From NCBI GenBank assembly GCA_051294905.1, contig CM119372.1, forward strand, positions 11,906,001-11,970,000: a DNA stretch of 64,000 nt, in the 5' to 3' direction. The notes beneath the pieces are model-generated. The model worked only from the letters and a program-made list of their open reading frames with translations. It searched no databases and had not been told where the DNA came from. Below are positions 29,972 through 64,000 of this stretch, piece by piece. The stretch is from Botryllus schlosseri (lineage: Eukaryota). Both the position numbers and the translations under genes were made by a program. The stretch's first letter is position 1. The number at the start of each line of letters is the position of its first letter.

Positions 29972-30349
29972 GTCTAGACCGTGTGGCACAAACAAGGCTG
30001 GAGATGTATCATCACATGCCTTATTTGATCATGTAAATACGATTGCGAAATAAATGCGCACTGTGTTTGGCACAAATAGATAGGCGAATATCACTTTCAC
30101 CCGCACTTACGTAATGATAATCGACTCGTTCGTGAATCGCGTAAGGCCGGACTTTGTTCAATACTGCGTGTGTGAATTATATGTATAAAGAACAGTGATG
30201 TAATTACCCGTATAGTTATGGGGATGTCTGAAGGTCAATACCCCCTCCCCTCCCCCAGTAGTTGTACTGCCCACCCTATGGGGGCTCAAGACTATCGTTT
30301 TCGGGGGGTGTTCCTTGAACTCATCAAATATTTTCTCTATTCTCTACTA

Positions 30350-30400
30350 GTTGCTGACGATTACCCCTGACGAGTGTCAGCCGAAAATATTCGGGTTCAT
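30350..30400 (+). ncRNA. Putative minimal type I hammerhead ribozyme, copy 1 (core intact)
   Basis: ACCC-CUGACGA-G(UGUCAGC)C-GAA-AAUAUU-C-GGGU: helix I ACCC/GGGU, conserved CUGANGA and GAAA boxes, palindromic helix III AAUAUU, UUC cleavage triplet at 30390-30392. Confidence 0.65.
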
Positions 30401-30654
30401 TTCAATATGAATATACTATTTAATCATCAAATATTTGCTCCCGTATTTTTTTTTATGCCACGTCACTGATACCGACCATATATAAATGATGATGCAAAAC
30501 TACCGCATTAAATCTCTTATGTATCTACAGGGTTATGGGAAACCTATATCATCCATTCGGTATTTCCTGGTCGGCATCGGGAAAAAATACGAACATAAAC
30601 CTCAATTTATAACATAACTTCCATAGCTTTTGACGAAAACAAATATATAATAAA

Positions 30655-31439: not shown

Positions 31440-57152
<25,713 letters not shown>

Positions 57153-57221
57153 CTAAAACGAGAAGAAATGAGTTATTATTTCGAACACGCAAATACAAGC
57201 CCTGATAAATATACAGTGAAA

Positions 57222-57270
57222 TAAACCCGAATATTGTATGCTGACACTCGTCAGGGGTAATCGTCAGCAC
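57222..57270 (-). ncRNA. Degenerate hammerhead-like copy 3 (GAAA box mutated)
   Basis: Minus strand reads gtgctgacgattaccc-ctgacga-gtgtcagc-atacaatattc-gggttt; cgaaa is replaced by ataca. Confidence 0.45.
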
Positions 57271-62207: not shown

Positions 62208-64000
62208 CGATGCAATATTTGACCATAAATCGGCAAGGTTTGGACAGCTAAATCATCGGTGATGGATTTCCTATTTCGTTATTATCAGATTGTGCTCAAT
62301 ATTGCGCCAGCGAAAGTTGATACTCTTGTTGGAAGTGTTTTGGGGCAAAACCGGGTCGGAGAGTTTTGGTAAGACCACGTGACTCATGTAATTTGAGATT
62401 ATCATCCGTATCGCTCATGCGATAACCGCTCAAGCATCTCGGAATTTTGCCATTCTGTGGATCGCGGCAACTACCGTGTAGGATCACGACAGCACAGTCT
62501 GTGGGTTCTTAGATGTATAAAGTGACTGATTCTTTCCGTTCGATACGACTTCGCCGTTCACGACAATCCATAACAAATATTTGGAAATTTTCGGCCGCAA
62601 GTTGACAACTGTTGTCACCGGAGTTGGCTTGGGAAACCGCAAGATCGCCACAACGTTAACAAGAAATGACCACTCATATTGGGATGATACGATGATAGTT
62701 CGTATGGTTGTTTATATCAATGACGCCATTGATTTCATCTGACCAATCACCAGCACTACACACATCATTTGTAGGATATGAGGTGCTTTGTGCGCGCTGG
62801 TTGGCGGAACCGTGTAATTATCGTATCGAGGATGACTCACATCCAAATGATAAGTACCGCCAGTCGGAAAATTTCTATAAATCGCCGATAAGGCAGTTCA
62901 CAAAACGTCTAGAGTAGGCCGATATAAAAATGATACAGTACACACAGGTCTCTAATCTCTATCGAATCACTCGTTGATTTTCAGTATACTGGACGCATGC
63001 AAATGTAATGTATGTCGTCGCGGTGGAATCAAAGTAGCTTATGTCCATATTTTCAAATTTTAAGATCAATTCTTCAAACTTACGGAAAACCAAGTTTTTG
63101 TAAAAGTTTGATTTGTTTTTGGCCATATCTTGTTCATGTTTATTTTTATCACATTGTTTCAGAGTAAATCATGGTCAAGATGTGGTTTCACAACCTTCAG
63201 CCCGTATCAACCTTCCTGCCGGACCGCCAAAGATATCACAATTTTCTCAAAACTCAATTCTCAAATGGAAGAAATTTGGAATATTTTTTCTACATGGTGT
63301 TGTTATATGGAGGTCATGATCTACTAAAGACTACGTCACCATGCTGCAAGTGCAAGTGATGCGCGAAACTGTTTAAAAGCATATAGCCATAACCTAATGC
63401 CAGATTTATGTAAAAGATGAGAAGACTTATTATCCGTAATTGTTAGATTTCGACAGTATAGTTTAGGTACATTTGGCAGTACAATAGAAGCTAGCAAACA
63501 GCAAAGTCGCATATAATTGAATAGTATATTCATATTGAAACATATACTATTCAATTGTATATTGAAGTTCTGTACCTCCAAGAAGCTGTTCAAAGTCGCA
63601 TATGTTGGAAAAGAAACCGAACAATCAAAATCAAATTAGTGGTTTTTAACAGTACTCCACCTTGACATAACTTCGATCGAACTACGTGTATCAGGTTTGC
63701 TATAAAAGATACAACATTAAATGAAGTTTCCCATAATTGCTTTTGAGTTGCAACTATTTTTCGTAATTAAATATATTCATCATGAATAGTTTCAAACTCG
63801 CGCGGGAACGTTAAACCATTTCGAAAGAAAAATATGTTTAAAAGATATGGAATATGCATTGTTGATATATATAGGAAATGCGTGATAAGAGATCAAAATG
63901 TGTTGTTTTTCCATAAAATTTCAATAGCCGAACTAATCCAGTGACTTCTAAATGAGGAATCATGCTCGTGAGTATTAATTTCATCGTCTAAGTATTTACA

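What the first reader, a model, noticed from the sequence alone, without database searches (positions are those of the whole stretch)
30350..30400. Repeat family encoding a minimal hammerhead ribozyme with a predicted loop II pseudoknot
Seen: ACCC-CUGACGA-G-UGUCAGC-C-GAA-AAUAUU-C-GGGU, with helix I ACCC/GGGU, a one-base-pair helix II, palindromic helix III (AAUAUU) and a UUC triplet predicting cleavage after 30392. Upstream GCUGAC (30353-30358) is exactly complementary to loop II GUCAGC (30376-30381), and both halves are retained in all three copies (also 48728-48778 and 57222-57270). Established: minimal type I hammerheads with palindromic helix III occur in Penelope-like retroelements and retrozymes and cleave as dimers, and loop II pseudoknots stabilise some natural hammerheads. 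Inference: this is a short, non-coding, ribozyme-bearing mobile family. No reverse transcriptase was seen next to any copy.
Basis: partly seen in the sequence, partly recalled or inferred. Interest (0 to 1): 0.8.

Follow-up and report, generated by a model that had tools for sequence, protein, structure and literature searches.

The report
Pseudoknotted hammerhead in Penelope-like retroelement stubs
The three repeats are short broken-off ends of a very abundant, recently active Penelope-like jumping gene, and each carries that element's small hammerhead ribozyme motif in an unusual form whose second stem is replaced by a pseudoknot.

Summary
The motif is at 30353-30396 as described, with copies at 48661-48855(-) and 57217-57269(-). 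The 29-mer across it occurs 11,563 times in this 495-Mb animal-type genome, against 0 for the control.

This is not a short non-coding mobile family. The copies are 5'-truncated terminal stubs of a 2,692-bp Penelope-like element (PLE) with an 848-aa RT plus GIY-YIG-like ORF. It shows tandem and head-to-head copies, two 3'-end clusters (the PLE "tail") and a 12-bp target duplication around copy 1. The motif lies between the stop codon and the next ORF start, with predicted cleavage 14 nt before the ATG.

Sister PLE families here and in metagenomes share this architecture with different stem sequences. All 6 pseudoknot pairs and 3 of 4 helix I pairs show compensatory changes, and helix III stays palindromic.

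Against: no Rfam hit, one relative family has U at core position 3, and neither RNA read ends nor insertion 5' ends mark the cut site. Cleavage is untested.

[quoted passage not shown] I found the two together in a PLE in no paper, so I file it as a new variant of a known kind. This scan noted PLE hammerhead stubs in other genomes before.

The parts
30339..30424 (+). Copy 1: an 86-nt 5'-truncated insertion of the Penelope-like element (unit positions 79-164), ending at the short (tail-less) 3' end.
   Evidence: blastn against the tandem unit gives 100% identity over 86 nt.
30322..30333 (.). Left copy of the 12-bp target-site duplication CATCAAATATTT. Five extra bases (30334-30338) separate it from the insertion.
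   Evidence: Read directly.
30425..30436 (.). Right copy of the 12-bp target-site duplication.
   Evidence: Read directly.
30353..30358 (+). Pseudoknot strand P (GCUGAC), pairing with 30376-30381.
   Evidence: All 6 pairs show changes on both sides across families (helix 1, 92.9% of cells paired).
30363..30366 (+). Helix I 5' strand (ACCC), pairing with 30393-30396.
   Evidence: 3 of 4 pairs show changes on both sides (helix 2).
30367..30373 (+). Hammerhead core box CUGANGA (C3-A9).
   Evidence: The box is intact in the consensus of every own-genome sister family seen.
30374..30382 (+). One-base-pair helix II (G30374:C30382) closing a loop made of a 1-nt bridge (U30375) and the pseudoknot strand Q (GUCAGC, 30376-30381).
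   Evidence: 36 G:C, 3 G.U and 1 other among 40 rows. The bridge nucleotide varies (A, G or U) between families.
30383..30385 (+). Core G12 A13 A14.
30386..30391 (+). Helix III as a loop-less 6-nt palindrome (AAUAUU), which can pair only with a second copy.
   Evidence: Sister families carry AAGCUU, also a palindrome; the central pair changes G:C to U:A.
30392..30392 (+). C17; predicted cleavage lies 3' of this base.
   Evidence: Follows from hammerhead numbering. Cleavage is not shown.
30393..30396 (+). Helix I 3' strand (GGGU).
30407..30409 (+). Start codon of the element's ORF (unit position 147). Only the first 6 codons are kept in this stub.
48661..48855 (-). Copy 2: an older 196-nt stub (unit 12-206) that includes the 3' tail. 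The motif lies at about 48732-48774, with helix I out of register.
   Evidence: 87.8% identity.
57217..57269 (-). Copy 3: a 53-nt fragment (unit 92-144). P, the core box and Q are kept; the GAAA box is lost.
   Evidence: 92.5% identity.
63511..63594 (.). Head-to-head junction of two tail pieces of the same element (unit about 140-203), without the ribozyme motif.

Best explanation
[quoted passage not shown] Reverse transcription starts about 31-75 nt downstream of the motif, so every insertion carries it, however short. The motif is the element's hammerhead ribozyme. It sits in the 146-nt spacer between one unit's stop codon and the next unit's start codon. In transcripts of tandem or partly tandem copies, two motifs pair through their palindromic helix III. 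Each would then cut after C17, 14 nt before the AUG, releasing unit-length RNA with a very short leader. In place of a normal hairpin helix II it has a single G:C pair, and the six loop nucleotides pair with a hexamer 8 nt upstream of the core. That pseudoknot extends helix II and ties it to the far end of helix I. Shown: the sequence anatomy, the PLE identity, and covariation of helix I, the pseudoknot and the palindrome. Inferred: cleavage itself, the need for a dimer, and that the pseudoknot belongs to the active fold.
For: PLE identity. L031 holds two 1,480-nt arms that are 100% complementary. Each arm carries a 535-aa open frame that matches RVT_1 at E 2.3e-8 and contains YVDD and a GIY...YVGRT motif.
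The tandem array L064 has a 2,692-bp period and 860-aa open frames. All 150 scored matches of the endonuclease part, out of 8,652 first-look candidates, are 98-100% identical.
Of the 30 loci fetched around the 29-mer, 10 hold a second copy, and 8 of these are minus-then-plus head-to-head pairs 47-1,055 bp apart. The 3' ends fall in two clusters, 34 at unit 163-175 and 32 at unit 191-207, of 73. This matches the PLE 'tail' described in PMC8557442 and PMC11167929 (passages read). Copy 1 has a 12-bp target duplication.
Ribozyme. At least 10 of 80 metagenome PLE loci carry a classic minimal hammerhead. A descriptor for the one-base-pair-helix-II form hit 6 times in those loci and 0 times in reversed controls.
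In the own genome CTGADGAG-N5-8-CGAAA occurs 888 + 862 times against 62 + 58 for the control. These hits fall into several sister families with different stems.
On 41 aligned rows, 90.5% of cells pair against 76.8 +/- 1.0 in shuffles (0 of 500 reach it) and at most 38.4% when partners are slid. All 6 pseudoknot pairs and 3 of 4 helix I pairs change on both sides.
A third lineage, L077 (47% aa identity), pairs GCAUU with AAUGC at the same place. The distance from P to C3 is 8 nt in every family.
In a sample anchored outside the core, 64 of 79 PLE-type rows keep all core positions, and every deviation is a singleton (counted by eye).
Precedent. [quoted passage not shown]
Against: No Rfam hammerhead model matches, even at E up to 10, and RF00163 found nothing in the genome, although only 73 of 70,463 candidates were scored.
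The closest relative family (57-63% aa identity) has UUGAAGA, that is U at core position 3, in 5 of its 6 copies and UUAAAGA in the sixth.
Raw single-cell RNA reads and contigs showed no pile-up of molecule ends at the predicted site, and reads cover both strands as embedded copies. That library type is poorly suited to the question.
None of 74 distinct insertion 5' ends lies at the cut site.
The nested minimum-energy fold of the monomer is three small hairpins at -12.2 kcal/mol, one of which sequesters the core.
The own-genome sister families were found with a pattern that fixes the core, so their core conservation is partly built in.
For another PLE, hammerhead mutants did not affect insertion in vitro, and no reads began at the cut site (PMC11167929, passages read).
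Window copies 2 and 3 are themselves defective.
Confidence: 0.75

Rival explanations
1. The upstream hexamer and loop II form an ordinary hairpin that is conserved for another reason, such as recognition of the RNA by the element's RT/endonuclease or dimerisation and packaging. On this view the hammerhead core is a relic that no longer cuts in this lineage.
For: The relative family keeps P:Q, helix I and the palindrome but has U3. No cleavage-site ends appear in reads or among 74 insertion 5' ends. Hammerhead mutants did not affect PLE insertion in vitro (PMC11167929, passages read). The P:Q hairpin alone is worth -7.4 kcal/mol.
Against: Helix I crosses P:Q and covaries as well, so both pairings are under selection. 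No own-genome sister family has a fixed change in the 11 core positions, while stems, N7, the bridge nucleotide and H17 differ between them. The 8-nt P-to-core spacing is constant, as expected for a three-dimensional constraint.
Confidence: 0.15
2. Conformational switch. In this family GUCAG of loop II can pair either with the core's own CUGAC (off state, a 5-bp hairpin with a GAGU loop) or with the upstream hexamer (on state), so the upstream strand acts as an anti-inhibitor.
For: The core-sequestering hairpin is part of the nested minimum-energy fold. The upstream strand resembles the core box in several families.
Against: The core-to-loop pairing is not conserved: about 3 bp in the GCCAGU families and none in L077, read by eye. 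One change in the relative family breaks it.
Confidence: 0.07
3. One reading: an independent short, non-coding, ribozyme-bearing mobile family (retrozyme-like).
For: The window copies are short and have no ORF beside them. One pair of direct copies 135 nt apart exists (L028).
Against: The copies are collinear with the end of the 2.7-kb autonomous unit. Their 5' ends are scattered, 74 ends at many positions, and they share the unit's two 3'-end clusters. No short tandem array was seen in the window.
Confidence: 0.03

Closest known systems
Minimal hammerheads (min-HHR) in the pseudo-LTRs of metazoan Penelope-like elements (Cervera and de la Pena 2014, PMC4209133; Lunse et al. 2017, not held, recalled only)
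   Same: Type I topology, location in the repeat between PLE ORFs, helix I of 4-5 bp, G10.1:C11.1, a palindromic loop-less helix III implying action as a dimer, and very high copy number.
   Different: The published form has a hairpin helix II, described as 7-8 bp for Schistosoma. The published descriptor asks for a 3-7 bp helix II and the string gaaannuh (supplement). Here helix II is one pair plus a pseudoknot, and the palindrome is 6 nt, so the motif fails that descriptor on both counts. The word 'pseudoknot' does not occur in that paper's main text or in the one supplement file that could be searched.
[quoted passage not shown] 2011, PMC3088659)
   Same: A 6-bp Watson-Crick pseudoknot links the stem I side to the stem II side. 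Stem II is reduced to one pair. Spacing is constrained.
   Different: That example is type II, comes from a metagenome dataset and acts as a monomer with a normal stem III. Here the ribozyme is type I, lies in an animal retroelement, and the pseudoknot strand lies 5' of helix I and pairs with loop II itself.
Poseidon PLE of Anolis carolinensis, PAc (Frangieh et al. 2024, PMC11167929)
   Same: The hammerhead sits at the ORF start. Reverse transcription starts at two internal sites inside the 5' end of the ORF, which gives the optional tail. Copies are tandem.
   Different: In PAc the cut site is 26 nt after the start codon. Here it is 14 nt before it, so cleavage would leave the ORF whole.
Non-LTR retrozymes of animals (Cervera and de la Pena 2020, PMC7229834, listing and abstract only; Li et al. 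2026 preprint, abstract only)
   Same: Short hammerhead-bearing repeats related to PLE pLTRs.
   Different: Retrozymes are short tandem units that yield circular RNAs. The window copies are solitary truncated ends of an autonomous element.

Membership tests
Hammerhead ribozyme (type I) | CUGANGA and GAAA core boxes in the order C-G-cleavage site, with H17 not G | tested here: met
   for copy 1. Copy 2 keeps both boxes. Copy 3 lacks GAAA.
Hammerhead ribozyme (type I) | Three helices around the core | tested here: inconclusive
   Helix I has 4 bp with covariation. Helix II is only G10.1:C11.1 plus the pseudoknot. Helix III is possible only between two copies.
Hammerhead ribozyme (type I) | Match to the curated Rfam covariance models | tested here: not met
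   Searches give no match. (RF00163 on the genome) gives none, but only 73 of 70,463 candidates were scored and the controls did not ring.
Hammerhead ribozyme (type I) | Self-cleavage at the predicted site | not testable with these tools
   Reads showed no pile of ends at the site, but the library is unsuitable.
PLE min-HHR as defined by the 2014 descriptor | Stem II hairpin of 3-7 bp and gaaannuh | tested here: not met
   The descriptor text is in the supplement. Here stem II is 1 bp and the palindrome is 6 nt.
PLE min-HHR as defined by the 2014 descriptor | Lies in the repeat between the ORFs of a PLE | tested here: met
Penelope-like element (EN+, C-terminal endonuclease) | RT domain followed by a GIY-YIG endonuclease in one ORF | tested here: met
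   RVT_1 matches at E 2.3e-8. The VVY...YVGRT...H motif after the RT is read. PF01541 itself did not reach E 0.01 and is precomputed for only 2 of the 120 listed homologs.
Penelope-like element (EN+, C-terminal endonuclease) | Partial tandems, head-to-head 5'-truncated copies, optional 30-40-bp tail | tested here: met
Pseudoknot-stabilised hammerhead | At least 4 bp of pairing between the stem I side and the stem II side, supported by covariation | tested here: met
   6 of 6 pairs change on both sides and 92.9% of cells pair. L077 has an unrelated 5-bp pair at the same place.
Non-LTR retrozyme | Short tandem unit with one hammerhead per unit | tested here: not met
   The window copies are solitary. 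One 135-nt-spaced pair elsewhere looks like two adjacent truncated insertions.

The most novel reading that the evidence does not exclude
A clade of animal Penelope-like elements uses a distinct hammerhead build. Stem II is cut down to one G:C pair. Its helix is completed in pseudoknot fashion by a hexamer placed exactly 8 nt upstream of the core, with a single nucleotide bridging the groove. Stem III exists only between two copies. Cleavage falls 3-25 nt before the start codon, so it would produce an uncapped unit-length mRNA. This build escapes both Rfam and the published PLE descriptor, so PLE hammerheads may be under-counted, and some elements may have been scored as lacking canonical ones.
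Probability: 0.4. Interest if true: 0.5.

Novelty: new variant of a known kind. Interest (0 to 1): 0.4.

Why it matters
It turns an apparent orphan ribozyme repeat into a well-placed part of a known retroelement class. It also gives a compact (about 45 nt), strongly covarying natural example of a hammerhead whose stem II is a pseudoknot. If it is active, search descriptors for PLE and retrozyme hammerheads need a pseudoknot branch. The placement just upstream of the AUG would make the long-open question of what PLE hammerheads are for testable in a very young, high-copy family.

Tried and rejected
1. Terminal inverted repeats of a DNA transposon or MITE. The minus-then-plus pairs suggested this at first. 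It was rejected because the arms are 5'-truncated RT-coding copies.
2. The upstream CUGACGA as the true core box (a 'two-box' model). It is conserved in the relative family, but the A, B and L077 families have other sequences there, and no helix I or II fits it.
3. A hammerhead-less sister family. It appeared to turn up (21 of the 100 listed rows), but its flanks are unrelated to the PLE, so it is an unrelated repeat that matched the anchors.
4. Expression: no RNA holder listed. Laying one raw single-cell RNA run and three contig sets gave depth that mirrors genomic copy pile-up and no ends at the site.
5. RF00163 on the whole genome gave nothing, with weak coverage.
7. Lunse et al. 2017 could not be read. 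One of the Cervera 2014 supplement files could not be searched. A description of this variant there cannot be excluded.
8. Literature searches for hammerhead + pseudoknot + Penelope (14 papers) and hammerhead + Penelope-like + stem II + tertiary (10 papers) gave no title or abstract on such a variant. I read passages of only some of these papers.

Full report
**What is in the sequence**

On the + strand the window reads as follows:
- GCUGAC at 30353-30358
- a 4-nt linker
- ACCC at 30363-30366
- CUGACGA at 30367-30373
- G at 30374 and U at 30375
- GUCAGC at 30376-30381
- C at 30382
- GAA at 30383-30385
- AAUAUU at 30386-30391
- C at 30392
- GGGU at 30393-30396

Two minus-strand copies keep both hexamers. 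Copy 2 has lost a C from ACCC and gained a G in GGG, which puts helix I out of register. Copy 3 has AUACA in place of C-GAAA.

Rfam gives no match at gathering score for the window. It gives no hammerhead match even at E up to 10 for 30250-30500.

**It is a high-copy repeat**

The genome that holds the window is 495.5 Mb in 219 contigs. The 29-mer spanning both hexamers, with up to 3 mismatches, occurs 5,835 + 5,728 times; the reversed control occurs 0 + 0 times. Of the 30 loci fetched, 10 hold a second copy. Eight of those are a minus copy followed by a plus copy, 47 to 1,055 bp apart.

**What the repeat belongs to**

- Two copies 2.9 kb apart (L031) are the ends of two 1,480-nt arms that are 100% complementary.
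- Each arm carries a 535-aa open frame with an RVT_1 match (E 2.3e-8), the YVDD motif, and after it a VVY...YVGRT...H motif of GIY-YIG type.
- The last 192 residues have 8,652 first-look candidates in the genome. All 150 that were scored are 98-100% identical, with open frames up to 860 aa.
- A tandem array (L064) has a period of 2,692 bp. The motif occurs once per unit, and the ORF runs 848 aa from ATG to stop.
- Counting from the first base after the stop codon: the upstream hexamer is at 93-98, the core box at 107-113, C17 at 132, and the ATG at 147.
- Insertion 5' ends are scattered: 74 distinct ends, none shared by more than two copies. The 3' ends fall into two clusters, 34 at unit 163-175 and 32 at unit 191-207, of 73.

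Tandem units, head-to-head 5'-truncated copies and an optional 30-40-bp tail are the published signature of Penelope-like elements (PLEs) (PMC8557442 and PMC11167929, passages read). The tail has been traced to two internal start sites of reverse transcription inside the 5' end of the ORF (PMC11167929).

The ORF has 843 homologs at E up to 1e-5 among 8,000 scored candidates. Many are about 840 aa long and sit on contigs of about 2.7 kb.

**The window copies**

blastn of the unit against the window gives:
- 30339-30424, unit 79-164, 100% identity
- 48661-48855 minus strand, unit 12-206, 87.8%
- 57217-57269 minus strand, unit 92-144, 92.5%
- a head-to-head junction of tail pieces at 63511-63594, without the motif

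Copy 1 is flanked by an exact 12-bp duplication, CATCAAATATTT (30322-30333 and 30425-30436). The repeats are therefore dead stubs of an autonomous element. Reverse transcription starts downstream of the motif, so every stub carries it, which explains why it is the most abundant part of the element.

**Is the hammerhead real?**

Individual insertions decay neutrally, so conservation across all copies says little. Families have to be compared.

Scanning 80 metagenome loci that encode relatives of the ORF (28-69% identity) with a strict descriptor found classic PLE minimal hammerheads in at least 10 loci. These have a helix I of 4-6 bp, CUGANGA, one unpaired nucleotide, a hairpin helix II of 5-7 bp, GAA, a 4-6-nt palindrome and H.

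The closest relatives (57-63% aa identity; 6 copies in L066, L067, L069 and L096) carry a motif homologous to ours. Compared with ours:
- the outer pseudoknot pair has changed from G:C to U:A
- a helix I pair has changed from A:U to U:A
- the palindrome has changed from AAUAUU to AAGCUU
- the core box reads UUGAAGA, that is U at position 3, in 5 of the 6 copies (UUAAAGA in the sixth)

A third lineage, L077 (47% identity), has a 4-bp helix I, CUGAUGA, G, a 6-nt loop, C and GAA. The loop's AAUGC is complementary to GCAUU upstream, again after a 4-nt linker. A descriptor for this one-base-pair-helix-II build hit 6 times in the 80 loci (316,136 bases, both strands) and 0 times in reversed sequence.

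**Sister families in the same genome**

The pattern CTGADGAG-N5-8-CGAAA excludes our own family by its N7. It occurs 888 + 862 times against 62 + 58 for the control. I fetched forty 130-nt stretches around listed hits.

Three of them (L148, L149, L160) are unrelated. The rest fall into several PLE families, with the ORF's ATG some 15-30 nt downstream where it is kept. They share the same build but use different stems:

| Feature | Variants seen |
|---|---|
| Pseudoknot (upstream strand / loop strand) | ACUAAC/GUUAGU, ACUGAC/GUCAGU, ACUGGC/GCCAGU, UCUGGC/GCCAGA, ACUGGU/ACCAGU, GCCGAC/GUUGGC |
| Helix I (5' strand / 3' strand) | GCUA/UAGC, CACUG/CAGUG, CACUC/GAGUG, GCUC/GAGC |
| Palindrome | AAGCUU |

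The distance from the end of the upstream strand to C3 is 8 nt in every family.

I aligned 41 of the 51 candidate rows. The ten dropped rows were the three unrelated ones, six whose upstream part is missing or rearranged (L152, L161, L167, L178, L185, L105), and one duplicate. On this alignment:
- 90.5% of cells form a standard pair
- shuffles give 76.8 +/- 1.0, and 0 of 500 reach the observed value
- sliding the partners gives at most 38.4%
- all 6 pseudoknot pairs, 3 of 4 helix I pairs and the central palindrome pair show changes on both sides

Three caveats apply. The rows are related. L077 is out of register in this alignment and counts against the structure. The own-genome rows were chosen with the core fixed, so this alignment cannot test the core.

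For a less biased look at the core I anchored a pattern outside it (CGTTC, 33-35 nt, GAATAAATT). It gave 417 + 392 hits against 1 + 3 for the control. Of the 100 listed rows, 21 belong to an unrelated repeat. Of the 79 PLE-type rows, 8 have a change in the six fixed positions of CUGANGA and 8 in GAAA, with one row in both, so 64 of 79 are intact. I counted these by eye. All deviations are singletons, whereas stems, N7, the bridge nucleotide and H17 differ between subfamilies. These anchors reach only families that I had found through the core pattern, so this is supporting evidence rather than independent evidence.

**How it most likely works**

Helix III has no loop, so it can form only between two copies. 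This is as proposed for PLE and newt hammerheads (PMC4209133 passages; PMC6765202 passages).

Helix II is the single G10.1:C11.1 pair. The six nucleotides that precede C11.1 pair with the upstream hexamer, which would stack on that pair as a 7-bp helix. The single variable nucleotide after G10.1 would bridge the groove. I recall a one-nucleotide loop spanning 6-7 bp in classical H-type pseudoknots; this comes from memory and not from a call. The 8-nt link then ties the far end of this helix to the far end of helix I. That is the job done by loop-loop contacts or pseudoknots in other hammerheads.

According to PMC3088659 (passages and section 8 read):
[quoted passage not shown] - its rate constant exceeded 1.2 per min
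- it depended on its 6-bp pseudoknot

Cleavage after C17 would fall 14 nt before the AUG in our family, 3 nt before it in the closest relative family and roughly 15-25 nt before it in the others. It would therefore release unit-length RNA with the ORF intact. That step, and any role in translation of an uncapped RNA, is inference.

**Evidence against activity**

- Rfam finds nothing.
- The relative family has U3.
- Reads from one raw single-cell RNA run and contigs from three other runs mirror the genomic pile-up of stubs, come from both strands, and mostly run on into unrelated sequence. No place shows many molecule ends. The library type is poorly suited.
- None of 74 insertion 5' ends is at the cut site.
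- The nested minimum-energy fold of the monomer is three small hairpins, one of which pairs the core's CUGAC with loop II. That pairing is not conserved in the other families.
- For the Anolis PLE, hammerhead mutants did not change insertion in vitro (PMC11167929).

**Comparison with what is known**

Hammerheads in PLE repeats are established (PMC4209133), and so are pseudoknotted hammerheads (PMC3088659). The published PLE descriptor requires a 3-7 bp stem II and the string gaaannuh (supplement), so this motif would escape it on both counts.

Neither the main text of that paper nor the one supplement file that could be searched contains the word pseudoknot. Two full-text searches listed no paper whose title or abstract describes such a PLE variant.

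I could not read Lunse et al. 2017 or one supplement file. The claim that the variant is unreported is therefore provisional.

**Verdict**

The thing is a new structural variant of a known kind, and not a new mobile family. Earlier notes of this scan describe PLE hammerhead stubs in other genomes.

Noticed in passing
window 63511-63594: Head-to-head junction of two short tail pieces of the same PLE (unit about 140-203), with no ribozyme motif. This is a fourth fragment of the family in the window.
   Followed up: partly
G000:C1:22034521, 22037299 and 22040077 (L147 lies in this array): A second PLE family (ACUAAC/GUUAGU pseudoknot, GCUA/UAGC helix I) sits in a tandem array with a 2,778-bp period. 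More than one PLE family with this hammerhead build therefore looks recently active in the genome.
   Followed up: partly
L186-L189 (for example G000:C1:8624654-8625100): An unrelated repeat family made up 21 of the 100 rows listed. It matched my two anchors by chance, and its flanks bear no likeness to the PLE. Its nature is unknown.
   Followed up: partly
L148 and L149 (G000:C1:1478415-1478544 and 7163045-7163174): Two copies of another repeat that contains CUGAUGAG-N7-CGAAA but has no fitting helix I, palindrome or upstream complement. This is probably a chance core match in a different repeat.
   Followed up: no
proteins P0001, P0003, P0006 and P0016: Full-length homologs (about 840 aa) sit on contigs of 2,685-2,698 bp, almost exactly one unit length. 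This could reflect collapsed tandems or unit-length (processed or circular) molecules in those assemblies.
   Followed up: no
L105 (metagenome contig), about 3023 on + and about 1108 on the reverse strand: A classic minimal hammerhead lies inside a stretch that matches the RT, and a pseudoknot-type motif of the relative family lies on the other strand. These are probably nested or adjacent PLE insertions.
   Followed up: no
L064:1300-2100, table 5: In the raw RNA run, 12 reads show a joint that goes back 92 nt (1628 to 1537) with about 22 inserted letters. This is probably a genomic rearranged copy rather than an RNA event.
   Followed up: no
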